This document shows, piece by piece, positions 1 through 48,582 of a DNA stretch of 64,000 bases. The DNA lies in the NCBI GenBank assembly GCA_965195345.1, contig OZ239628.1, positions 608,001 through 672,000 on the forward strand. The letters are read 5' to 3'. Within the stretch, counting starts at the first letter, position 1. Each line of letters begins with the position of its first letter. The translations under genes were made by a program, and so were the position numbers. The notes under the pieces are model-generated. The model did not search any database, was not told the DNA's origin, and saw only the letters and a program-made list of their open reading frames with translations. Source of the stretch: an uncultured Thiomicrospira sp. Lineage in GTDB: Bacteria; Pseudomonadota; Gammaproteobacteria; CAKMZV01.

Positions 1-121
1 GCGTTACGCCTCCTACCATTTTCGTGCCATAATCAATTGCTTGCTGGCAATGAAGAGTGCCTTGTTTGCCAGTAAAACCTTGGCAAATGACTTTGGTTTT
101 TTTGTTTATTAATACGCTCAT
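1..121 (-). CDS. sucD: Succinyl-CoA synthetase alpha subunit, N-terminal part (runs off window start)
   Basis: Manual translation from ATG at 121: [40 protein letters not shown], the typical SucD N-terminus; directly downstream of sucC. Confidence 0.95.
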
Positions 122-137
122 TGATTCCGAAGATTTA

Positions 138-1298
138 TTATTTAGAAAGAGAAACTATTTTCTGTGCTGCATCAGCTAAATTGCTGGCCACAGTAAGTTC
201 AAGTTCGGTGTTGTTGAGTAATTCCATGCCTTCTTTAGCCATGTTTCCTTCAAGACGCACAACGACCGGTATATTTAAATTAACTGTTTTTGCTGCTTCT
301 ATAATTCCTTCAGCAATTAAGTCACAGCGCACAATGCCTCCAAAGATATTTACTAATATGCCTTTAACCTGCTTTTCAGAAGTGATTATTTTAAAAGCTT
401 CAGTAACTCGTTTAGCGGTTGCAGTGCCTCCTACATCAAGGAAATTAGCAGGGGAGCCATCATAATATTTAATAATATCCATTGTCGCCATTGCCAATCC
501 AGCACCATTGACCAAACAACCGATGGTACCATCAAGTGCCACATAGCTTAGATCATTGTCTGCAGCGCGTAATTCACGTTCATCCTCTTGAGTGGTATCG
601 CGTAAATCAAGAAGATCTGGTTGACGGAATAACGCATTGGAGTCAATGTTTATTTTCCCATCCAGACAAATCAAGCGATTTTCAGAAGTTATAACTAAAG
701 GATTTATTTCCACCAAAGATAAGTCCTTTCCAATGAATAAGCGATACAGTCCTTTGAGTAAATTGGAAAAATCCTTAAATGCATCACCGCTTAAATCCAA
801 TGCAAAAGCCAATTGACGAGCTTGCCAAGGCATGATTCCTGTTATTGGGTTGATCATGATTTTATGGATTTTATCAGGTGTTTTTTCTGCTACTGACTCT
901 ATGTCCATACCACCTTCTGTTGATGCCATGAAGACAATACATTGAGAAGCTCGATCAATGACAACTCCGAGATATAATTCATTTTGTATGTCACTGATTT
1001 CTTCAACAAGAATTTGATTGACAGGTTGTCCTTCTTCAGTGGTTTGAAAAGTGATAAGATTAGTGTCCAGCAATTTATCCGCTACTTCACCAACTGCTTC
1101 TACGCTATCTACTAATTGTACGCCGCCCGCTTTTCCTCGACCACCTGCGTGCACCTGTGCTTTCACTACCCAACGGTAACCGCCTAGGGCTTCAGCTGCT
1201 TCAATGGCTGCTTCACGATTCTGGACTACTCTTGAACGAGGAACCGGCATTCCGAATGCAGAGAAAAGTGCCTTTGCTTGATATTCGTGTAAATTCAT
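138..1298 (-). CDS. sucC: Succinyl-CoA synthetase beta subunit
   Basis: Start re-called at MNLHEYQAK (ATG 1298, SD AGGGAG upstream); motifs [46 protein letters not shown]. Confidence 0.97.
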
Positions 1299-1329
1299 TA
1301 AATTTGGCTCCCTTGAGGCATGAATTGAT

Positions 1330-2775
1330 TTATGCAGTTGGACGTTTTTTTGAAATCGTATGTATTGCTCGCCCATCAACATCCAAAGCGGCTTCATGTA
1401 TTGCTTCAGATAAACTTGGATGGGCAAATATGGTGCGTTGTAAGTCTTCAGTAGAACTACGACACTCCATGGCAATAACGATTTGACCTATTAACTCAGA
1501 AGCATTGTAATTGACAATGTGAGCGCCGAGTATTCGATCTGTTTTTGCATCCGATATGATTTTAACAAAGCCTGCAGTATCATTGGCTGCTTTAGCTCGT
1601 CCGCTGGCAAGAAATTGAAACTTTCCAGTTTTAGTTTCAATGCCACGTTCTTGCGCTTGTTTTTCATTCTCACCAACCCAAGCAATTTCTGGATTGGTAT
1701 AAATGACCATGGGAATGCAGTTATAGTCAATATGCGGTTTTTGTCCTGCTATCCGCTCGGCAACTACTATTCCTTCTTCAGAACCTTTATGCGCTAACAT
1801 CGGACCACGAACAACGTCTCCAATGGCGTATATTCCTTCAACACTCGTTTTGCAGTTTTCATCCACTTCAACGAACCCTCGATCATTTATTTTGATACCA
1901 GTGTCATCACCCAGCAGATCACCAGTGTAAGGTTTCCTTCCAACGGCAACTAACACTTTGTCAAAGCGCTCGCTGTGTTTTTCTCCATTGTTGAGCGTGT
2001 ATTCAATATCAACACCACGATTGCGAATTTCCACGGAGTCAATTTTTAATCCCATGCGAAATTCCATTCCTTGTGCTTTGAAGGAGCGCAAGGCTGCTTT
2101 GCCCGTATCTGGGTCTGCATCGGGTAGTAAGCCTGGGCGCATTTTTATGATGGTCGTTTTTGAACCAACGCGGCTCCATGCACTGCCCATCTCTAAACCA
2201 ATAGCACCAGCACCAATCACTGCGAGGCGTTTTGGAGCAATATCCCAATCAAGGGCATCTTGCGAATCGGTTATGTATTTTCCATCAAAAGGGATGAATG
2301 GAAGAGGAGCAGGTATTGAACCAGTGGCAATAATAATGTTGTCTGCAGTTAGAGCTTGTTGTGTGCCTTCATGAGGAGTAAAAAAAACTTTTTTATTGGC
2401 TTCTAGGCGAGCTTGACCTTGAAGCCATTCCACTTTATTGGCTTTAAATAATTGAGCAATACCACCAGTCAACTCCTGTACAATTTTATCTTTTCGGGCA
2501 ATCATAGAAGACGCTTTAAAGCCAACTTTTGCAACTTCAATGCCGTGTACTGAAATGTCTTTATTGACCACTTCTAAGTGATGAGTAGACTCTAAAAGTG
2601 CTTTAGAAGGAATGCAACCAACATTTAGACAAGTACCACCGAGAGCAGGTTTACCATCTTTATTAATCCATTTGTCTATACAGACAGTTTTTAGCCCTAA
2701 TTGGGCACAACGTATAGCAGCGACGTATCCAGCTGTTCCGGCGCCAATAACAATTACTTGGTAATGATCTTTCAT
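1330..2775 (-). CDS. lpd: Dihydrolipoamide dehydrogenase (E3 of 2-oxoglutarate dehydrogenase)
   Basis: GGTCLNVGCIPSK disulfide motif, GPMLAHK, HPSLSE dyad; between sucB and sucC; SD AAGGAG. Confidence 0.95.
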   Translation of the reverse strand: MKDHYQVIVIGAGTAGYVAAIRCAQLGLKTVCIDKWINKDGKPALGGTCLNVGCIPSKALLESTHHLEVVNKDISVHGIEVAKVGFKASSMIARKDKIVQELTGGIAQLFKANKVEWLQGQARLEANKKVFFTPHEGTQQALTADNIIIATGSIPAPLPFIPFDGKYITDSQDALDWDIAPKRLAVIGAGAIGLEMGSAWSRVGSKTTIIKMRPGLLPDADPDTGKAALRSFKAQGMEFRMGLKIDSVEIRNRGVDIEYTLNNGEKHSERFDKVLVAVGRKPYTGDLLGDDTGIKINDRGFVEVDENCKTSVEGIYAIGDVVRGPMLAHKGSEEGIVVAERIAGQKPHIDYNCIPMVIYTNPEIAWVGENEKQAQERGIETKTGKFQFLASGRAKAANDTAGFVKIISDAKTDRILGAHIVNYNASELIGQIVIAMECRSSTEDLQRTIFAHPSLSEAIHEAALDVDGRAIHTISKKRPTA

Positions 2776-39438: not shown

Positions 39439-40872
39439 TCATTCGTAGCGCTGATCTGTCAGTGTATTTAAGAATGCAACCAGTGCATCTATTTGAGTAT
39501 CCGTTAAATTTCTCATGCCTAATCGCGTGTTGTCTACTGAAGCGGGAAATTCTGGGTTACCCCAAGGCTGTCCTGTTTCTGGATTATTTGGAATTCGATT
39601 GCGAGCAGCAGTGCCAGCATTCACATAAAATTGTATTACTGTACGCAAGCTTACAAACACACCGTTGTGCATGAACGGAGCAGTCACAGCTACATTTCGT
39701 AATGAAGGTGTTTTGAATCGTCCATCCAGATTCACATTGTTTAAAGTAGCGCCAACGCCTCTATCGGAAATGGCAGCAGGGTTAGCATTAGTTAGGGTGC
39801 TGTTGGTGGGTAAGCCAATATTGCGGTAGTTAAAGTTGGAGAAAGCTTGTTGTGGCGTGTTGGCATTGCTTTGCTCTGCAATATGACAACGTCTACAGCT
39901 GGTGGCATTTCCAAAAAATAAATTTCTTCCTTCTATCTCTTGCGCTGTAAGGGTTGCAGCTCCAGTTAAAGAGCGATCAAACTTAGAATCAAATGTGGAA
40001 AATTGCGTACTTTGACGCTCAAAATCCGCTATGACGGATGTTACTGCATTTAATGCTGTTAGTGTGCTGTCTAGGACAGTACTACCAAAATGTTCCCTAA
40101 GGTTGTTTACATAAATACTGTTTTCGTTGATTCGCGCAACAATCTCTTGCACATTAGGTAATTGCAATTCCACACTATTTGTAAAAGGCCCTGCTGCTTG
40201 GGCTTCTAAAGTGGCTGAACGACCATCCCAAAATTGTCCACCTTGAGGGTTATTGCCATTATTACTGAAAGCTGGAATTAGGTTTGCGTAATTTATGGAT
40301 GGACTGTTTCGTGTGCCTAAAGCTACACCATCTTGACCTATTGACACGGCTTTACCGATCACAGAATCGGTTCGAGTGTCAGAAAAAGCATGGTTTGCAT
40401 CGTGACAAGTAGCGCATGACTGCGTGCGATCGCGTGAGAAATTCACATCATTGAAAATCATTTCTCCTAAAACTGCACGAGATAGGATTAGGCTTGAGGA
40501 GGAGTTAACCGTAACATTGATAGTGTCAGTGCTGGTTATATTTCCATCGCTAACAACGAGCTGTATGTTGTAAGAACCAGATATATTTGGAGTAAACGAG
40601 GTATTTAGTGAAGTTGCATTATTCAGATTTACTACGCTTCCAGTAGGAGTGGAAATGAATGCCCAAGAATAAGTAAGTGTATCGCCATCAGGATCAGTGC
40701 TTAATGAGGCTGACAAAGTGATGGTTGCGCCCACGGTGGAACTTTGATCAAGACCTGCATTTGCAACAGGGGATTGGTTGCCGGTAGAAGTATTAGGCTG
40801 TTCGTTGCCTGTGTTGTTACCACAACCTGTTAAAAATATACAAATAAGTGTTGCTAAACTAAAATGACGCAT
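39439..40872 (-). CDS. Diheme cytochrome c peroxidase/MauG-family lipoprotein with N-terminal PKD/Ig-like domain
   Basis: Lipobox LTGC; PVANAG.DQ...SDPDGD.LTYSW-type Ig domain; CATCH and CRRCH; QFWDGR; FKTPSLRNV, PFMHNG; NPETGQPWG...LTDQRYE. Confidence 0.88.
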   Translation of the reverse strand: MRHFSLATLICIFLTGCGNNTGNEQPNTSTGNQSPVANAGLDQSSTVGATITLSASLSTDPDGDTLTYSWAFISTPTGSVVNLNNATSLNTSFTPNISGSYNIQLVVSDGNITSTDTINVTVNSSSSLILSRAVLGEMIFNDVNFSRDRTQSCATCHDANHAFSDTRTDSVIGKAVSIGQDGVALGTRNSPSINYANLIPAFSNNGNNPQGGQFWDGRSATLEAQAAGPFTNSVELQLPNVQEIVARINENSIYVNNLREHFGSTVLDSTLTALNAVTSVIADFERQSTQFSTFDSKFDRSLTGAATLTAQEIEGRNLFFGNATSCRRCHIAEQSNANTPQQAFSNFNYRNIGLPTNSTLTNANPAAISDRGVGATLNNVNLDGRFKTPSLRNVAVTAPFMHNGVFVSLRTVIQFYVNAGTAARNRIPNNPETGQPWGNPEFPASVDNTRLGMRNLTDTQIDALVAFLNTLTDQRYE

Positions 40873-41444: not shown

Positions 41445-42752
41445 GTGAGTAATAATGAAATTTTCGGGCGCATCACAGCACCCGAGGAATTTGAAAAGGC
41501 TGTTATTGTTCATGTTGAATTTTCAAACAAACTCCAAGACGCCTCGCTTGAAGAACTCCAAGAATTAAGCTACAGCGCAGGTGCGCGTAGTGTTCATGTG
41601 GCGAAGTTTAACAATACGGCCATAGAAGCTAAATACTTTGTTGGTAGTGGCCAATTAGAGCAAATTAATCAAGCAGCTAAAAGTGCAGAGGCAGACGTTG
41701 TAATATTCAATCATAATCTATCGCCCTCTCAAGAAAGAAATATAAGTAAACAACTCAATCGTAAGGTGATTGATCGAGTAAGGTTAATTCTCGATATATT
41801 TGCTTTAAGAGCAAGAACATATGAAGGGAAGTTGCAGGTTGAATTGGCACAGCTCAAGCATATGTCTACTCGATTGACTGGAGGGTGGACGCATTTAGAA
41901 AGACAAAAAGGTGGGATAGGCTTGCGCGGGCCAGGGGAAACACAACTTGAAAGTGACCGGCGTATAATTCAACAAAGGATGAAGTCGATTCGTCAACGCC
42001 TGCTCAAAGTACGTAAGCAGCGGAGTCTTGGACGCAACGCAAGAACGCGAAATGACTTGCCGACAATAGTAATGGTAGGGTATACGAACGCAGGGAAATC
42101 TACGTTGTTTAATCAATTGACATCTGCTGGAGTTTATCAAGCAGATCAGCTCTTTGCAACGCTTGATACCACGTTAAGACGCATACAAATTGCGGGCATT
42201 GGAGCATGTGTTTTGGCTGATACAGTTGGATTTATTCGTCACCTGCCACACGAATTAGTAGATGCATTCAGAGCGACACTTGAGGAAGTAACCGAAGCGG
42301 ATCTTTTGCTGCATGTTATCGATTCAAGCGATGAGCAATACGATGAAAAAATGAGCGCGGTTAATGTGCTTTTAGAAAGTATAGATGCTGATAAAATACC
42401 TGTTGTTGAAGTTTTTAACAAAAGTGATTTAATACAAAGTCGACCCGAAAGTAATCAAAAATGTGATATATACCAACAAGTATATGTTTCAGCATTGGAG
42501 TCTTCGGGTATGAATGAGTTGTTAAAATGTATAGGGAATGTACTGAGGGGAGAACGATGCAGGGTTCTAATTGATTTGCATGGAGATTATGGCAAATTGC
42601 GTTCACAACTGTACTCTTTTGGAGAAGTGATCTCGGAATCATGCTTAGACGACGGTGCGGTGCAGATGGAAATGCGCATTAGTCATCAAGAAAAAAACCG
42701 ATTAAAGCAGTTTTCACCCGCAGTGATGACGTTTAAAGAGATGGAAAATTAA
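41445..42752 (+). CDS. hflX: Ribosome rescue GTPase HflX
   Basis: GPGETQLE, GYTNAGKST, LFATLD, DTVGF, NKSD; follows hfq. Confidence 0.96.
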   Translation: MSNNEIFGRITAPEEFEKAVIVHVEFSNKLQDASLEELQELSYSAGARSVHVAKFNNTAIEAKYFVGSGQLEQINQAAKSAEADVVIFNHNLSPSQERNISKQLNRKVIDRVRLILDIFALRARTYEGKLQVELAQLKHMSTRLTGGWTHLERQKGGIGLRGPGETQLESDRRIIQQRMKSIRQRLLKVRKQRSLGRNARTRNDLPTIVMVGYTNAGKSTLFNQLTSAGVYQADQLFATLDTTLRRIQIAGIGACVLADTVGFIRHLPHELVDAFRATLEEVTEADLLLHVIDSSDEQYDEKMSAVNVLLESIDADKIPVVEVFNKSDLIQSRPESNQKCDIYQQVYVSALESSGMNELLKCIGNVLRGERCRVLIDLHGDYGKLRSQLYSFGEVISESCLDDGAVQMEMRISHQEKNRLKQFSPAVMTFKEMEN

Positions 42753-42776: not shown

Positions 42777-45437
42777 ATGAATGAATTTATAGATAAAGAC
42801 CCTCTGGGCACGAAAGAATGGCAAGAAGCATTTGAAGCAGTTCTTGAGTTTGAAGGGACAGAAAAAGGACACCACTTATTGCAGAAGTTGATTGATCAGG
42901 CTCGAATGAAAGGGCTTGATCTGCCATACAGTGCCACCACAGATTATTTAAATACTATTCCTGTGTCACAGCAGGCTTATGCACCCTCAGGGATGGATAT
43001 TGAACGTAAGCTTCGTTCAATCGTTCGTTGGAATGCAGTCGCTATGGTGGTGAAAACGAATCGAAAATATTCGGAATTAGGTGGGCATCTTGCCAGTTAC
43101 TCTTCCAGCGCTACACTCTATGAAGTGGGCTTCAACCATTTCTACAAAGGACACGATCGAAAGAATTCCGATGGCGGTGATATGGTCTTTTTTCAAGGGC
43201 ACTCGTCTCCAGGGATATACTCTAGAGCGTATCTTGAAAGTCGTCTGAGTGAAGAAGATATCACTAATTTTCGCCAAGAAGTAGATGGCAAAGGTGTGTC
43301 GTCGTATCCTCATCCATGGTTGATGCCCGGATTTTGGGAATTTCCTACAGTTTCGATGGGACTTGGTCCAATCATGGCTATCTATCAAGCTCGATTTATG
43401 AAATACATGGAGGATAGAGGTTTAATAAGAGAAGAACAGCGCAACGTTTGGGCATACCTTGGTGATGGAGAAATGGATGAACCCGAGTCTTTGGGTGCTA
43501 TTCAATTAGCGTCAAGAGAAAGCCTTGGAAATTTGATTTTTGTTATCAACTGTAACTTACAACGTTTGGACGGTCCTGTCCGTGGTAACGGGAAAATAAT
43601 TCAAGAACTTGAAGGCAATTTTCGCGGTGCAGGATGGAATGTTATAAAAGTTATCTGGGGTTCAGATTGGGATGCTTTACTTGAGCGCGATAAAAGTGGC
43701 ATGTTGGTGAAACGCATGATGGAAGTGGTTGATGGAGATTATCAAACTTATAAAGCAAAAGGAGGGGCTTACATACGGGAACATTTTTTCGGCAAGTACC
43801 CTGAAACTTTGGACTTAGTTAAGGATTTATCAGACGATGATATATATCGTTTAAACAGAGGAGGGCATGATCCTCGCAAAATATATGCAGCCTACAAACG
43901 CGCCGTAGAAACAACGGATCAGCCAACTGTTATTCTGGCTAAAACTATTAAAGGGTACGGGATGAAGGGATCGGCTGAGGGCGCAAATACTGCGCATCAG
44001 ACTAAGAAACTTGATGAAGGTGCTTTGCGAATATTCCGAGATCGCTTCAGTATTCCTATATCCAATGAAATGCTCAACGAACTACCATTCTATAAGCCAT
44101 CAGAAAACTCTGAAGAAATGAAGTATCTGCATGAGCGGCGCAAAGAGCTTGGTGGCGTCTTACCCAATCGCAGGATACTTAAAGAAAAAATAGATATGCC
44201 TGCTTTTTCTGTATTCAAGTCGCTCTGTGAAGATACGGGCGAGCGTGAAATGTCTACTACCATGGTCTTTGTTCGATTTTTATCCATCGCTTTGCGTGAT
44301 AAAAATATAAAGGATCGTCTCGTTCCTATTGTGCCAGATGAAGCGCGTACTTTTGGTATGGAAGGATTATTTAGACAGCTTGGAATCTATGCTCCAGAGG
44401 GTCAAAAGTATACCCCTGAAGATTCTGACCAAATGATGTGGTACAAAGAAGCGGCAAATGGACAAATATTGGAAGAGGGAATTAATGAAGCAGGGGCAAT
44501 GTGTTCATGGATTGCCGCAGCCACCTCGTATGTAAATCATGCCAAAGTTATGATTCCTTTCTACATTTACTACTCAATGTTCGGGTATCAGCGAGTGGGC
44601 GATTTAGTTTGGGCTGCTGGAGATATGCAGGCTAAAGGTTTCTTAATGGGAGGTACGGCTGGAAGGACAACGCTCGCAGGCGAAGGTTTACAGCATCAAG
44701 ATGGACATCACATGCTAATGTTTGGCAATGTGCCAAACTGTAGGAGTTATGATCCTACGTTCTCCTATGAATTAGTTGTTATTATGCAAGATGGGTTGGA
44801 GCGGATGTATACGCGGCATGAAAATTGCTTTTATTACTTAGCTGTAATGAATGAAAACTATTCACATCCTGCTATGCCTAAAGATTGTGCCGAAGGGATT
44901 ATTAAAGGAATGTATTCATTCAAAAAAGGAGCAAAAAGTGCAAAGCGCGTTCAACTTATAGGGTCGGGTACTATATTTCGTGAAGCAATTGCTGCTGCAG
45001 AACTGTTGAAAAAGGATTTTGCTGTTGAATCAGATTTGTGGAGCGCACCAAGTTTTAATGAACTTCGTAAAGATGGATACGAATGTGAGCGTATTAATCG
45101 TTTGCACCCTGATAAGAAGCCTTTGGTGCCTTATGTGACGCAATGTTTTTCTGGTAGTGAAGGACCGGTTATTGCTGCAACGGATTACGTTCGTCAATAT
45201 GCTGACCAAATTCGCTCATGGATTCCAAACTCCTATACCGTATTGGGCACAGATGGCTACGGACGCTCAGATACGAGGAAAAAACTACGTCATTTCTTTG
45301 AAGTTGATCGCTATTGGATTGTGGTTGCGGCTCTAAAGGCATTGATGGATGAAGGCAGAGTGGATGCTAAAGTAGTGAAGAGCGCGATTAAAAAGTACAA
45401 AATTGATAGTGATAAGCCTAACCCATTGAACGTTTGA
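42777..45437 (+). CDS. aceE: Pyruvate dehydrogenase E1 (homodimeric type)
   Basis: SSYPHP, TVSMGLGP, GDGEMDEPES, NCNLQRLDGPV, EGLQHQDG. Confidence 0.98.
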   Translation: MNEFIDKDPLGTKEWQEAFEAVLEFEGTEKGHHLLQKLIDQARMKGLDLPYSATTDYLNTIPVSQQAYAPSGMDIERKLRSIVRWNAVAMVVKTNRKYSELGGHLASYSSSATLYEVGFNHFYKGHDRKNSDGGDMVFFQGHSSPGIYSRAYLESRLSEEDITNFRQEVDGKGVSSYPHPWLMPGFWEFPTVSMGLGPIMAIYQARFMKYMEDRGLIREEQRNVWAYLGDGEMDEPESLGAIQLASRESLGNLIFVINCNLQRLDGPVRGNGKIIQELEGNFRGAGWNVIKVIWGSDWDALLERDKSGMLVKRMMEVVDGDYQTYKAKGGAYIREHFFGKYPETLDLVKDLSDDDIYRLNRGGHDPRKIYAAYKRAVETTDQPTVILAKTIKGYGMKGSAEGANTAHQTKKLDEGALRIFRDRFSIPISNEMLNELPFYKPSENSEEMKYLHERRKELGGVLPNRRILKEKIDMPAFSVFKSLCEDTGEREMSTTMVFVRFLSIALRDKNIKDRLVPIVPDEARTFGMEGLFRQLGIYAPEGQKYTPEDSDQMMWYKEAANGQILEEGINEAGAMCSWIAAATSYVNHAKVMIPFYIYYSMFGYQRVGDLVWAAGDMQAKGFLMGGTAGRTTLAGEGLQHQDGHHMLMFGNVPNCRSYDPTFSYELVVIMQDGLERMYTRHENCFYYLAVMNENYSHPAMPKDCAEGIIKGMYSFKKGAKSAKRVQLIGSGTIFREAIAAAELLKKDFAVESDLWSAPSFNELRKDGYECERINRLHPDKKPLVPYVTQCFSGSEGPVIAATDYVRQYADQIRSWIPNSYTVLGTDGYGRSDTRKKLRHFFEVDRYWIVVAALKALMDEGRVDAKVVKSAIKKYKIDSDKPNPLNV

Positions 45438-45447
45438 GGACAAAGTA

Positions 45448-46785
45448 ATGGCAATTCAAGAAATTAAAATTCCAGATATAGGTGACTTCAATGATGTGGA
45501 AATTATTGAAGTTTTAATTCAAGTAGGGGATTCAGTCAATAAAGACGATTCTTTAATAACATTAGAGAGCGATAAAGCCAGCATGGAAATTCCATCGCCT
45601 GTTAGCGGTGTTATCAAGGAAATGACCGTTAAGCTTGGAGATCGTGTTTCTAAAGGCACATTGATAGCACAGATTGAAGCGAGTGAAGAGAGTGCTGCTG
45701 CTTCCTCTAAAGAAAGCGTGCCTGAAATGTCTGCGGAAGGAGAAGACCCAAAAGCGGATGTTGCTAAGGAAGCGCCTCAGTTGCAGAGTGCAGAGCAAAA
45801 TAATTCAGCGCCTTTATTAACAACAACCAATGCGGTTGAAGTTGAAACGGGTACGCATTCAAATGCAGTTGTCCCTGACAATAGACCGGCGACTTCAGCC
45901 CTATATCACGCCAGTCCTAAAGTTCGTCGTCTTGCTTCATCATTAGGCGTGGATTTGGCCAATCCCAAAGGAACTGGTCCGAACGGACGCATCAAAGAAC
46001 AAGATGTGCGCGATTATGTGAAATCTGCTTTGAGTGGGCAGAGTCAATCAGGGATGGGCATTCCGACTATTCCTGAAATAGATTTTTCCCAATTTGGAGA
46101 AATTGAGGAAGTACAACTATCGCGTATTAAAAAACTATCAGGGAAACACTTAAAATCTTGCTGGCTAAACGTACCACACGTAACCCAATGCGTTGATGCT
46201 GATATTACTGATTTAGAAGCATTTAGACAAACAATGAAAGTAACAGCCGAAAAAGCTGGTGTGCGTTTGACACCTTTAGCTATTATTATTAAGGCAGTCG
46301 CGGCGGCATTAAAAGAAAATCCTATTCTCAATGCCTCTCTCAAAGGGGACAATCTTATTATGAAAAAATACTTTCATATAGGTATTGCGGTGGATACGCC
46401 TAATGGATTGGTTGTGCCAGTTATCCGAAATGTAGACAGCAAAGGAGTGCTTGAGTTAGCTGGTGAAATGGCTGATGTTAGCGTAAGAGCCCGTGATGGG
46501 AAACTTACTCCTACTGATTTGAGCGGAGCAGGGTTTTCTGTTTCCAGTTTAGGAGGTATTGGAGGAAGTTACTTTACGCCTATTGTCAATGCCCCTGAAG
46601 TTGGTATTCTTGGAGTAGGTCGTTCTTCAATGCAGCCCGTTTGGGATGGTGCCTCTTTTCAACCACGACTTATGTTGCCATTGTCTATTTCCTATGACCA
46701 TCGCGTGGTTGACGGTGCACAAGGAGCACGATTTGCCGTATCGATGAGCAAGTATTTGAGCGATATACGCACTCTCGTTTTATAA
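45448..46785 (+). CDS. aceF: Dihydrolipoamide acetyltransferase (E2p), single lipoyl domain
   Basis: LESDKASME lipoyl motif, GTGPNGRI binding domain, SYDHRVVDG. Confidence 0.96.
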   Translation: MAIQEIKIPDIGDFNDVEIIEVLIQVGDSVNKDDSLITLESDKASMEIPSPVSGVIKEMTVKLGDRVSKGTLIAQIEASEESAAASSKESVPEMSAEGEDPKADVAKEAPQLQSAEQNNSAPLLTTTNAVEVETGTHSNAVVPDNRPATSALYHASPKVRRLASSLGVDLANPKGTGPNGRIKEQDVRDYVKSALSGQSQSGMGIPTIPEIDFSQFGEIEEVQLSRIKKLSGKHLKSCWLNVPHVTQCVDADITDLEAFRQTMKVTAEKAGVRLTPLAIIIKAVAAALKENPILNASLKGDNLIMKKYFHIGIAVDTPNGLVVPVIRNVDSKGVLELAGEMADVSVRARDGKLTPTDLSGAGFSVSSLGGIGGSYFTPIVNAPEVGILGVGRSSMQPVWDGASFQPRLMLPLSISYDHRVVDGAQGARFAVSMSKYLSDIRTLVL

Positions 46786-46818: not shown

Positions 46819-48582
46819 GTGAGCATTGATAAGATATATATTCCAGATATCGGTGACTTTAGCGAAGTTGAAATTATTGAAGTTTTGATCGCTGAAGGAG
46901 ACAAAGTTGAAGAAGGACAGTCACTTATCACATTAGAAAGTGATAAAGCCAGTATGGAAATCCCGACACCAAAGGAAGGGGTTGTTAAAAGTTTAAAGGT
47001 AAAACTTGGTGATAAAGTGTCGAAAGATAGTTTGATTTTGGAATTAGAAACTGCCGATGTTGAAAGTAAAGGGGGTGAGGGTGCGGATTTAAAAGATTCT
47101 TCTACTGCTAAACAAGAAACTAATCAGACAGCTGAAGTCGATACTGAAAGTAATTTAGAACGTGCGGATAAATCCGATAATGTTTACGATGTTGCTGTAT
47201 TGGGAAGCGGACCTGGTGGTTATACGGCTGCTTTTCGTGCGGCGGATCTTGGATTAAAAGTTGCTTTGATTGAGCGTTTTCCTATCATTGGTGGAGTGTG
47301 CTTGAATGTCGGCTGTATACCTTCTAAAGCGTTGTTACATATGGCACAAGTGGTGTGTGAAGCCAAAGAAATGTCTGAGAATGGTGTTGACTTTGGAAAA
47401 CCAAAGTTGAGTTTTGATCAAATGCGAGGCTTTAAAAATAAAGTAATCAATAAACTTACCGGTGGTTTACAAGCGCTTGCAAAGCAACGTAAAGTTGATG
47501 TTATCGAGGGTTATGGCAAGTTCATAGATGCTCATACCATTGTTGTTGAGGGAGAGAAAAATAAAGAAATTCATTTTAAAAATGCAATTGTGGCAGCTGG
47601 TTCACGAGTACAAAAAATGGACGTTTATCCGTGGCAGGATGAACGCATTATGGATTCCACAGATGCGCTTGAGTTAGAGAAATTCCCCAAAAAACTATTA
47701 GTTGTTGGAGCAGGCATTATTGGTTTAGAGATGGCAACAGTTTATGAGTCGTTTGGCAGTGAAGTAACAGTGACAGTGCGCTCTCAAAATATATTCAGTG
47801 GAGCTGCTGATAAAGACATTGTTAACCCTTTACTCAAACGCATGAAAAAGCGCATTGATCTTCAGTTTGGCACAGTGGTAAAAGCAGTTGATGCCACAGG
47901 TAAGCGTCTTAAAGTGACGCTAGAAGATGACAAAGGTGAGCGCAGCGAAACATTTGATAAGATATTAGTGGCGACTGGACGTATAGCAAATGGGTTGGTT
48001 ATTGATTCAGAAAAGGCTGGAGTGGTAGTTAATGAGAATGGTGTTATTCCAGTTGATCATCAAATGAGGACTAATGTTGCTCATATTTTTGCTATAGGCG
48101 ATATTGTTCCTGGTCCTATGTTAGCGCATAAAGCAACTCACGAAGGGAAAGTAGCTGCTGAAGTTATAGCTGGTCTTAAATCTGGATTCAATGCAATGAC
48201 TATACCGTCAGTAGCATATACTAATCCTGAAGTAGCTTGGATGGGTAAGACAGAAACAGAATGCAAAAAAGAAGGAATTGAATACACCAAGGGTGCGTTT
48301 CCTTGGGCTGCCAGTGGGCGCAGTTTGAGTATTAATAATACAGATGGATTGACGAAGCTACTGTTCGATAAAAAAACAGGTCGTCTGCTTGGAGCAGGCA
48401 TAGTTGGCCCTAATGCGGGAGAGCTAATTGCTGAGGCGGTGGTGTCGATGGAAATGGGTGCAACTGCAGAGGATATTGGGCTTAGCATTCATCCACATCC
48501 CACACTTTCTGAAACGCTTTGCTTTGCTGCTGAAATGGCTGAAGGGACTATTACAGATTTGATGCCTCCTAGAAAACGTTGA
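46819..48582 (+). CDS. lpdA: Dihydrolipoamide dehydrogenase (E3 of PDH) with N-terminal lipoyl domain
   Basis: N-terminal LESDKASME lipoyl domain, GSGPGGY, CLNVGC, HPHPTLSE. Confidence 0.96.
   Translation: MSIDKIYIPDIGDFSEVEIIEVLIAEGDKVEEGQSLITLESDKASMEIPTPKEGVVKSLKVKLGDKVSKDSLILELETADVESKGGEGADLKDSSTAKQETNQTAEVDTESNLERADKSDNVYDVAVLGSGPGGYTAAFRAADLGLKVALIERFPIIGGVCLNVGCIPSKALLHMAQVVCEAKEMSENGVDFGKPKLSFDQMRGFKNKVINKLTGGLQALAKQRKVDVIEGYGKFIDAHTIVVEGEKNKEIHFKNAIVAAGSRVQKMDVYPWQDERIMDSTDALELEKFPKKLLVVGAGIIGLEMATVYESFGSEVTVTVRSQNIFSGAADKDIVNPLLKRMKKRIDLQFGTVVKAVDATGKRLKVTLEDDKGERSETFDKILVATGRIANGLVIDSEKAGVVVNENGVIPVDHQMRTNVAHIFAIGDIVPGPMLAHKATHEGKVAAEVIAGLKSGFNAMTIPSVAYTNPEVAWMGKTETECKKEGIEYTKGAFPWAASGRSLSINNTDGLTKLLFDKKTGRLLGAGIVGPNAGELIAEAVVSMEMGATAEDIGLSIHPHPTLSETLCFAAEMAEGTITDLMPPRKR

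What the first reader, a model, noticed from the sequence alone, without database searches (positions are those of the whole stretch)
47695..47820. Pyruvate dehydrogenase E3 carries an NADP(H)-type fingerprint: candidate natural NADP-linked PDH
Seen: GAGIIGLE...GSEVTVTVRSQNIFSGAADKDIV. E. coli E3 as I recall it: GGGIIGLE...GSQIDVVEMFDQVIPAADKDIV. So Gly to Ala in the fingerprint, Glu to Val (47776-78), Met to Arg (47779-81), loss of the following Asp and a 1-residue insertion, inside otherwise well-conserved flanks. Established: V-R at this strand end is the 2'-phosphate-binding signature of NADPH-using glutathione and thioredoxin reductases, and Glu-to-Val plus Met-to-Arg changes were among those used to engineer NADP-specific E. 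coli E3. Multi-base changes argue against sequencing error. The gene is in the aceEF operon and carries a lipoyl domain, so it is very likely the PDH E3. With the OGDH E3 change, this suggests central metabolism rewired to make NADPH at both 2-oxoacid dehydrogenase steps; I do not know of a described bacterial example, and it has metabolic-engineering value.
Basis: partly seen in the sequence, partly recalled or inferred. Interest (0 to 1): 0.85.

Follow-up and report, generated by a model that had tools for sequence, protein, structure and literature searches.

The report
Pyruvate dehydrogenase E3 with NADP-type pocket
The last enzyme of this bacterium's pyruvate dehydrogenase complex has lost the residue that normally restricts it to NAD and gained NADP-type residues, so the complex may make NADPH, which is untested and would be unusual.

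Summary
The aceE-aceF-linked lipoyl-E3 (46819-48582) reads GAGIIGLE...TVTVRSQNIFSGAAD. Aligned to E. coli Lpd, this gives E205->V320, M206->R321, F207->S322 and D208->Q323, a one-residue insertion, and P212->G328.

The change is derived and conserved. Seven of the 120 closest 90% clusters carry it, and they form one clade (SH-aLRT 100) nested among 113 Glu-bearing sequences. All seven solved E3s whose alignments I saw keep Glu.

Published work supports the reading:
- E205G/A alone makes E. coli Lpd use NADP+.
- E205V+M206R plus three further changes gives about 100-fold NADP preference.

The OGDH-linked E3 in the window has also lost Glu, in a different way (K-M-R).

An unrelated relative, G013, has N-R-G in its only E3. 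It is also the only one of 17 family members with no Icd ortholog.

Two points count against a full switch. The second GR-type Arg is missing. The genome keeps NADP-Icd, PntAB and a malic enzyme, although zwf and gnd were not found.

Verdict: a credible natural NADP-accepting E3 (confidence about 0.6). Cofactor preference is unmeasured, and the proposed metabolic rewiring is unproven.

The parts
42777..45437 (+). aceE, homodimeric-type pyruvate dehydrogenase E1 (886 aa)
   Evidence: TIGR00759 aceE, 1452 bits against a cut-off of 860
45448..46785 (+). aceF, E2 acetyltransferase with a single lipoyl domain (445 aa)
   Evidence: TIGR01348 at 536 bits, just under its 552 cut-off; NF008814 at 511 bits
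46819..48582 (+). lpd, lipoyl-domain-fused dihydrolipoyl dehydrogenase E3 (587 aa, GTG start, 33 nt after aceF)
   Evidence: TIGR01350 at 486 bits against a cut-off of 408.8. Best solved relative is 5u25, a lipoyl-E3, E 1e-166; E. coli Lpd 4jdr E 4e-160
46942..46959 (+). lipoyl-lysine motif DKASME (K43) of the N-terminal lipoyl domain
   Evidence: Translation; aligned to the lipoyl domain of 5u25; coordinates
47203..47220 (+). FAD-binding GSGPGG fingerprint (residues 129-134)
47299..47316 (+). redox-active disulfide CLNVGC (C161, C166)
   Evidence: Identical to E. coli Lpd in the alignment; coordinates
47707..47730 (+). NAD(P)-domain fingerprint GAGIIGLE (residues 297-304)
47767..47811 (+). 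remodelled end of strand beta-2 and following loop, TVTVRSQNIFSGAAD (317-331). It holds V320 (Glu position), R321, S322, Q323, a one-residue insertion near S327, and G328 (Pro position)
   Evidence: Alignment to 4jdr. Alignment to the genome's own glutathione reductase puts V320-R321 on its I-R. Conserved in 7 of 120 clusters
48496..48513 (+). C-terminal catalytic His-Glu motif HPTLSE (H560, E565)
1330..2775 (-). second E3 (481 aa) in the sucA-sucB-lpd-sucC cluster. Its pocket TTIIKMRPGLLPDAD (2113-2157) has Lys at the Glu position (K211-M212-R213, 2137-2145)
   Evidence: TIGR01350 at 518 bits. Neighbours are sucB, sucA and sucC. Motif

Best explanation
The gene is the E3 (dihydrolipoyl dehydrogenase) of the pyruvate dehydrogenase complex. 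It is of the lipoyl-domain-fused type and all its catalytic parts are intact.

In its NAD(P) domain, the pocket that reads the 2' position of the adenosine ribose has been rebuilt:
- The Glu that hydrogen-bonds the 2'/3'-hydroxyls of NAD and repels a 2'-phosphate is now Val.
- The next residues are Arg-Ser instead of Met-Phe.
- The second acidic residue (Asp) is now Gln.
- The following loop has lost its Pro and is one residue longer and rich in Gly/Ser.

Inferred consequence: the enzyme accepts NADP+ at least as well as NAD+ (kcat/Km for NADP+ equal to or above that for NAD+). The complex would then deliver part or most of its reducing equivalents as NADPH.

Shown: the substitutions, their positional equivalence to E. 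coli E205/M206/F207/D208/P212, their conservation, and their rarity. Inferred: the change of cofactor preference and its size.
For: 1. Positional homology. HMMER to E. coli Lpd 4jdr gives E->V320, M->R321, F->S322, D->Q323, an insertion, and P->G328.

2. Published effect of these positions.
- Wild-type E. coli Lpd has no detectable NADP+ activity.
- E205G or E205A alone gives kcat/Km of 6.5-7.8 per s per mM for NADP+ and lowers the NAD+ value from 830 to 5-13, a ratio of 0.6-1.9. This supports growth of an NADPH auxotroph.
- The E205V five-fold mutant prefers NADP+ about 100-fold (PMC8406311, passages).
- The five changes are E205V, M206R, F207K, D208H and P212R. The reverse GR design swaps V197E, R198M, K199F, H200D and R204P (PMC5817062, table passage). 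So V-R here equals both the engineered Lpd and native GR.

3. The genome's own glutathione reductase aligns I-R on V320-R321.

4. The change is derived, conserved and rare.
- 7 of the 120 closest clusters carry x-R-[S/G] plus the insertion; 113 carry Glu.
- With the motif columns removed, the 5 derived-motif rows in the tree (4 different sequences; P0012 differs from P0008 by 0.005 changes per column) form a clade with SH-aLRT 100, nested among canonical sequences. Two changes of state are needed on the tree.
- Of 150 representatives at 50% identity, 143 were read. 136 are acidic at this column, 1 more carries Glu one residue later, 2 look frameshifted, and 4 are non-acidic.
- 7 of 7 solved E3 alignments that were shown have Glu.

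5. Convergence. The 39%-identical OGDH-linked E3 of the same genome lost the Glu differently (K-M-R). Its two genus mates have K-A-R, and the OGDH-type E3 of G003 has His.

6. An independent case. G013, from another family, has N-R-G in its only E3, while the other 14 family members that gave a match have Glu. G013 is 99% complete and is the only one of 17 without an Icd ortholog. That family shows pntA in 0 of 17 and zwf in 1 of 17.

7. zwf is absent from this 99.7%-complete genome and no gnd scores above cut-off.
Against: - Only 2 of the 5 GR-type or engineered residues are present. There is no second Arg at the P212/R204 position (Gly/Ser here) and no basic residue at +2/+3 (Ser, Gln). Preference could be weak or dual.
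- Fingerprint position 6 stays Gly (Lpd-like), not Ala as in GR.
- The genome already has NADP-Icd (764 bits), PntAB and a 746-aa malic-enzyme ORF, so no NADPH shortage is evident.
- Complex I (nuoF) is present and needs NADH.
- Lack of zwf does not track the motif. 37 of 61 relatives lack it; of the 30 relatives' E3 loci I read, 25 are canonical. G004, which has the R-R-G motif, has zwf.
- G013 has no pntA or sthA match, so an NADP-only E3 there would leave NADPH without a known route to respiration.
- A high cellular NADPH/NADP+ ratio would disfavour the E3 step (general knowledge).
- No enzyme assay exists.
- No cofactor predictor or ligand model could be run here.
Confidence: 0.6

Rival explanations
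1. A relaxed enzyme that still prefers NAD+. Loss of the Glu lets some NADP+ in, but NAD+ remains the main physiological acceptor. Arg-Ser and the longer loop compensate for NAD+ binding lost with the Glu.
For: The second GR-type Arg is missing and positions +2/+3 are not basic. Single E205 mutants of E. coli Lpd are roughly unselective, with a ratio of 0.6-1.9. The genome keeps complex I and other NADPH sources.
Against: E205G/A costs E. coli Lpd 65- to 150-fold in kcat/Km for NAD+. An Arg beside a hydrophobic residue at the strand end is what NADPH-using GR has. Four divergent sequences keep Arg at this place.
Confidence: 0.2
2. The enzyme is still NAD-specific. The substitutions are neutral or structural drift in a fast-evolving small-genome lineage, and discrimination is achieved elsewhere in the pocket.
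For: The stem branch of the clade is long (0.26-0.33 changes per column). No biochemical data exist. Four other non-acidic clusters pass the lipoamide_DH cut-off, and none of them is characterised as far as I could see.
Against: The segment is conserved across 65-75% identical proteins, insertion included. The Glu is otherwise nearly invariant: 113 of 120, 111 of 120, and 136 acidic plus one shifted Glu among 143. Two paralogs in one genome lost it independently. In E. coli its loss alone opens the enzyme to NADP+.
Confidence: 0.15
3. The remodelled pocket mainly lowers product inhibition by NADH, keeping PDH and OGDH active at a high NADH/NAD+ ratio. NADPH production is not its purpose.
For: From general knowledge, recalled and not from any call: E3 is the site of NADH inhibition of these complexes, and Lpd variants with lower NADH sensitivity are known. 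Both E3 paralogs are changed.
Against: The NADH-insensitive variants I recall map elsewhere, not to the 2' pocket. Gaining Arg-Ser is not needed for weaker NADH binding. In G013 the change coincides with loss of Icd, which points to NADPH supply.
Confidence: 0.05

Closest known systems
Engineered NADP-dependent E. coli Lpd / PDH complex (Bocanegra, Scrutton and Perham 1993; known to me only through PMC5817062 and PMC8406311)
   Same: Same enzyme family and the same positions. E->V and M->R are identical. The Asp is neutralised and the Pro is removed.
   Different: This one is natural and lineage-conserved. It has Ser rather than Lys at F207, Gln rather than His at D208, and Gly plus a one-residue insertion rather than Arg at P212. 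So one of the two phosphate-binding arginines is missing.
Laboratory-evolved E. coli Lpd E205G / E205A (PMC8406311, passages read)
   Same: Loss of the same Glu. Those variants supply NADPH in vivo through PDH and OGDH.
   Different: They are single changes with poor, unselective kinetics. The enzyme here adds Arg-Ser and a rebuilt loop and has been kept by natural selection.
Glutathione reductase NADPH site (E. coli GR V197/R198/K199/H200/R204; the genome's own GR)
   Same: A hydrophobic residue followed by Arg at the end of strand beta-2 of the same fold.
   Different: GR has a further basic residue and a second Arg seven residues on. It has Ala at fingerprint position 6 and acts on glutathione, not lipoamide.
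Lipoyl-domain-fused E3 of Neisseria (solved 5u25; 1ojt/1bhy 'P64K')
   Same: Same architecture (N-terminal lipoyl domain plus E3) and the best full-length solved match, E 1e-166.
   Different: 5u25 carries the canonical VVEM. The motif of 1ojt/1bhy was not displayed.
Pyruvate:NADP+ oxidoreductase of Euglena and some anaerobic protists (search listings only)
   Same: The net reaction, pyruvate to acetyl-CoA with NADPH.
   Different: An unrelated enzyme with no E1/E2/E3 complex (that it is a PFOR fused to a flavoprotein is recalled, not from a call).

Membership tests
Dihydrolipoyl dehydrogenase (E3, TIGR01350) | Whole-protein score above the curated cut-off | tested here: met
   486 bits against 408.8
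Dihydrolipoyl dehydrogenase (E3, TIGR01350) | FAD fingerprint, redox-active CxxxxC and C-terminal His...Glu dyad | tested here: met
   GSGPGG 129-134, CLNVGC 161-166, HPTLSE 560-565
Dihydrolipoyl dehydrogenase (E3, TIGR01350) | Acidic residue at the end of beta-2 of the NAD domain (NAD specificity) | tested here: not met
   V320 aligns with E. coli E205. Glu is present in 113 of the 120 closest clusters
PDH complex E3 (aceEF-linked) | Encoded directly after aceE and aceF | tested here: met
   aceE 42777-45437, aceF 45448-46785, lpd 46819-48582. Same order in G003, G004 and G013
PDH complex E3 (aceEF-linked) | Dihydrolipoamide:NAD(P)+ activity within the complex | not testable with these tools
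   Needs an enzyme assay
Lipoyl-domain-fused E3 (P64K type) | N-terminal lipoyl domain with a DKA lysine | tested here: met
   Residues 5-81 align to the lipoyl domain of 5u25; DKASME at 42-47
GR-type NADPH 2'-phosphate site | Hydrophobic residue in place of the Glu, followed by Arg (GR V197, R198) | tested here: met
   V320-R321
GR-type NADPH 2'-phosphate site | Basic residues at +2/+3 (GR K199, H200) | tested here: not met
   S322, Q323
GR-type NADPH 2'-phosphate site | Second Arg about 7 residues after the strand end (GR R204; engineered Lpd P212R) | tested here: not met
   S327/G328 here; no Arg between 322 and 331
GR-type NADPH 2'-phosphate site | Ala at fingerprint positions 2 and 6 (GR A179, A183) | tested here: inconclusive
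   Position 2 is Ala, but so it is in Glu-bearing OGDH-type E3s. Position 6 is Gly
GR-type NADPH 2'-phosphate site | Measured preference for NADP(H) | not testable with these tools
   No assay; no ligand-aware model was available

The most novel reading that the evidence does not exclude
A small family of roughly 2-Mb gammaproteobacteria runs PDH, isocitrate dehydrogenase and OGDH all on NADP+. NADPH would then be the main catabolic reductant. PntAB would work in reverse, passing electrons to NADH for complex I and exporting protons as it does so. More generally, loss of the E3 Glu would be a recurrent natural route to NADPH supply. It would arise independently in PDH-type E3s (this clade; G013 after losing Icd) and in OGDH-type E3s (the K-x-R forms, 7 of 120 clusters).
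Probability: 0.15. Interest if true: 0.85.

Novelty: new variant of a known kind. Interest (0 to 1): 0.66.

Why it matters
PDH and OGDH complexes are generally taken to produce NADH. The only NADP-linked versions that my searches found were engineered or laboratory-evolved E. coli enzymes.

A natural, selection-polished NADP-accepting E3 would have three consequences:
- It would show that central carbon oxidation can feed the NADPH pool directly in wild bacteria.
- It would change flux and redox models for these organisms.
- It would give metabolic engineers a ready-made part. It may be kinetically better than single-site mutants for making NADPH from pyruvate or 2-oxoglutarate.

The claim can be tested directly with one cloned gene and a spectrophotometer.

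Tried and rejected
- A word search restricted to residues 309-352 found only the query itself (7 candidates). It gave no wider census of the motif.
- A 32-residue piece (window 47743-47838) against solved structures found nothing at E<=10.
- The search for related loci on genome contigs returned 72 loci. None came from the query's own family, so it did not help to name or populate the clade.
- I considered zwf loss as the driver and rejected it. zwf is not found in 37 of 61 relatives, and 25 of the 30 relatives' E3 loci I read are canonical. G004, which has the derived motif, has zwf.
- pntA presence is only loosely associated. It is present in G000, G001, G002 and G004, absent in G003 and G013, and present in 31 of 61 overall.
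- sthA scored above cut-off in 8 of 61 relatives and in none of family f1.
- The second tree is invalid, because unaligned equal-length rows were taken as aligned. Its '3 changes' and its unfinished AU test are discarded. One search repeats it correctly.
- I did not run structure prediction, fold search or complex prediction. Without a ligand-aware readout they could not discriminate NAD from NADP.
Data Set S1 of PMC8406311 might hold further Lpd variants.
- I did not determine the organism's name.
Full report
**What is there.** The window (G000:C1:608001-672000; a 1.92-Mb single-contig genome, 99.7% complete, 39.8% G+C) carries hflX, aceE, aceF and lpd in that order, followed by a recB-like gene.
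- aceE (42777-45437) scores 1452 bits on TIGR00759.
- aceF (45448-46785) has one lipoyl domain.
- The 587-aa ORF at 46819-48582 scores 486 bits on the lipoamide_DH equivalog, against a cut-off of 408.8.
- Its best solved relatives are the lipoyl-domain-fused E3 5u25 (E 1e-166) and E. coli Lpd 4jdr (E 4e-160).
- The lipoyl-lysine motif, FAD fingerprint, redox disulfide CLNVGC and the C-terminal HPTLSE are all intact.

**The observation.** It is correct to the base. In the HMMER alignment to E. coli Lpd, 'vtvtvrsqnifsgaadkdiv' lies on 'idvvemfdqvi-paadkdiv'. In the numbering used by the papers:
- E205->V320, M206->R321, F207->S322, D208->Q323
- Q209->N324, V210->I325, I211->F326
- one inserted residue (about S327)
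- P212->G328

MAFFT puts the gap one or two columns later, so the exact site of the insertion is ambiguous. The Gly->Ala in GxGxxG is real but uninformative. Ordinary Glu-bearing OGDH-type E3s also read GAG, and the two same-genus relatives with the derived pocket read GGG.

**How rare it is, and whether it is maintained.**
- Closest 90%-identity clusters: 113 of 120 have Glu at this column. Seven do not: the query's own cluster, P0008-P0012 and P0014. All seven carry x-R-[S/G] plus the insertion, and an aromatic residue where canonical E3s have Ile/Leu-Pro (AVRSQEMFSAGVD, AIRSDRLFGGEAD, ARRGTQLFGGEVD).
- Representatives of 50%-identity clusters: of 150, 143 were recognised by my pattern.
  - 132 are Glu and 4 are Asp.
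  - One has the Glu shifted by one residue.
  - Two look frameshifted.
  - Four are truly non-acidic (A; Y-R-G...R; H-R-S; G-R-S). All four pass the lipoamide_DH cut-off.
  - Seven were not recognised and are not counted.
- Whole genomes of relatives, read at 30 loci:
  - The two other species of the genus and one further genus of the family (G004) have the derived pocket.
  - The third genus (G003) has VVEL.
  - One unrelated family member (G013) has LNRG without the insertion.
  - The other 24 relatives have Glu. With the window's own locus (derived) this makes 30.
- All seven solved E3 sequences whose alignments I saw keep Glu: 5u25, 4jdr, 9h2i, 1ebd, 2eq6, 1dxl and 6i4p.
- Tree of 41 E3 cores with the 15 motif columns removed (quick IQ-TREE, SH-aLRT only):
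  - The five derived-motif rows (four different sequences; P0012 differs from P0008 by 0.005 changes per column) form one clade (100), nested among canonical sequences.
  - G013 sits inside its own family's canonical clade (99).
  - The state changes twice (one search gives the same picture with all columns).

So the pocket is a derived state kept under selection for a long time, and it has arisen at least twice.

**What the substitutions should do.**
- I read passages of PMC8406311.
  - Wild-type E. coli Lpd shows no NADP+ activity.
  - E205G or E205A alone gives kcat/Km of 7.8 or 6.5 per s per mM with NADP+, and drops NAD+ from 830 to 12.8 or 5.4.
  - These variants let an NADPH auxotroph grow.
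  - The earlier five-fold mutant containing E205V preferred NADP+ about 100-fold.
- A table in PMC5817062 lists those five changes as E205V, M206R, F207K, D208H and P212R. It lists the reverse design of E. coli glutathione reductase as A179G, A183G, V197E, R198M, K199F, H200D and R204P.
- The natural enzyme therefore reproduces exactly the first two changes, which are also GR's V197-R198. It neutralises the second acid and removes the Pro.
- It has Ser and Gln where GR has Lys and His, and no second Arg.
- BLASTP against the genome's own glutathione reductase (542.7 bits against a cut-off of 480) puts V320-R321 on that protein's I-R.

That Glu reads the ribose hydroxyls and repels a 2'-phosphate is established knowledge of Rossmann folds. 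That Arg-Ser and the Gly/Ser loop hold the phosphate here is my inference.

**Supporting context.**
- The second E3 of the genome (1330-2775, minus strand) sits in a sucA-sucB-lpd-sucC cluster. It is only 39% identical, and it lost the Glu in another way (TTIIKMRPG).
- Its genus mates read YKARKG. The sucB-linked E3 of G003 reads FHPSATFLRN.
- Among the 120 closest clusters of this paralog, 111 have Glu, 7 have K-x-R (3 from this genus and 4 from others), one has N and one has G.
- Two paralogs losing a near-invariant residue in one genome is hard to ascribe to drift.
- A second, independent hint comes from family f10.
  - Of 17 genomes, 15 gave an E3 match. Only G013 has the non-Glu form (N-R-G).
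  - Two others read VVER, that is Glu kept with Arg added.
  - G013 (99% complete, 60 contigs, 1102 withheld bases) is the only one without an ortholog of the window genome's NADP-Icd. The other 16 have one at 59-71% identity, one of them cut by a contig end.
  - pntA was found in 0 of 17 and zwf in 1 of 17.
  - No monomeric IDH or sthA was found in G013.

This is a single coincidence in a draft genome, but it is what an NADPH-producing E3 would predict.

**Context that does not help the 'rewired metabolism' reading.**
- The window's genome lacks zwf (no candidates at all) and has no gnd above cut-off (best 53.9 bits).
- It keeps an NADP-type Icd (764 bits against a cut-off of 490) and pntA/pntB (803 and 669 bits).
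- It has a 746-aa malic-enzyme ORF (Pfam hit only; cofactor type not tested) and nuoF. nqrF did not score over cut-off.
- No SthA was found in the family.
- zwf is missing in 37 of 61 relatives, and 25 of the 30 relatives' E3 loci I read are canonical. G004, with the derived pocket, has zwf, has no sucA match, and has an NADP-malic-enzyme gene right after its E3.
- So the pocket change is not explained by an obvious shortage of NADPH in this genome.
- If PDH, Icd and OGDH all made NADPH, PntAB would have to run in reverse to feed complex I. That is possible but speculative.

**Literature.** The phrase 'NADP-dependent pyruvate dehydrogenase' occurs in 11 papers (10 listed). In the four I opened or searched it is the title of the 1993 engineering paper. 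For the rest I saw only the listing. Six phrasings of 'NADP-dependent dihydrolipoamide/lipoamide/dihydrolipoyl dehydrogenase' gave 0 papers. Six further phrasings gave 3 papers, which by title concern the unrelated pyruvate:NADP+ oxidoreductase or metatranscriptomics (listing only). The library lacks most subscription journals. I recall, without a call, older reports of NADP-dependent lipoamide dehydrogenase activities in amino-acid-fermenting anaerobes. As I recall, those were small thioredoxin-reductase-like proteins, not PDH E3s.

**Verdict.** This is a credible natural candidate for an NADP-accepting PDH E3, and with its paralog an NADP-accepting OGDH E3. I put 0.6 on NADP+ being used at least as well as NAD+, 0.2 on a relaxed enzyme that still prefers NAD+, 0.15 on retained NAD specificity, and 0.05 on a mainly regulatory role. 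It is a new variant of a known kind. The family, fold and chemistry are ordinary, but the cofactor pocket is not.

Noticed in passing
window 1330-2775 (-), pocket at 2113-2157: The OGDH-linked E3 also lacks the NAD-determining Glu. It reads TTIIKMRPG, with Lys at the Glu position and Arg two residues on. The K-x-R form recurs in 7 of the 120 closest clusters, 4 of them outside this genus (P0302, P0350, P0373, P0388).
   Followed up: partly
G000:C1:236094-237977 (L006 1293-3176), outside the window: Directly after the glutathione reductase gene lies a tandem array of 8 copies of a 234-bp unit (94% matches). The unit repeats the gene's 3' end, and the copies carry stop codons.
   Followed up: partly
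L119 (G003:C21:27063-31484), E3 ORF at 1498-2925: In the sister genus whose PDH-type E3 is canonical, the sucB-linked E3 reads VTLFHPSATFLRNAD. His stands at the Glu position and there is an Arg near the GR R204 position.
   Followed up: partly
L125 (G013:C19:7551-12020); family f10, loci L126-L140: G013's only E3 reads TVLNRGNQLMPG and follows aceF. G013 is the only one of 17 family genomes with no Icd ortholog. Two relatives (L135, L136) read VVER, with Glu kept and Arg added, which may be intermediates.
   Followed up: partly
L120 (G004:C3:16879-21258), ORF 2-1405 (-): In G004 (R-R-G pocket) an NADP-dependent malic enzyme gene lies immediately downstream of the E3. G004 gave no sucA match and has zwf.
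   Followed up: no
G000:C1:398751-399899 (+), outside the window: A second NuoF-like ORF (508 aa, 389 bits, below cut-off) lies about 2.5 kb from pntAB. Its function was not examined.
   Followed up: no
window 45448-46785 (+): The E2 has a single lipoyl domain (445 aa) and scores just under the TIGR01348 cut-off (536 against 552). The E3 carries its own lipoyl domain.
   Followed up: no
window 41445-42752 (+) and 42777: hflX ends 24 nt before aceE on the same strand, so it may be co-transcribed with the PDH genes.
   Followed up: no
window 39439-40872 (-): An MbnH/MauG-like di-heme enzyme (162 bits, below cut-off). It has an N-terminal lipoprotein-like signal and a Ser/Thr-rich extension of about 130 residues.
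   Followed up: no
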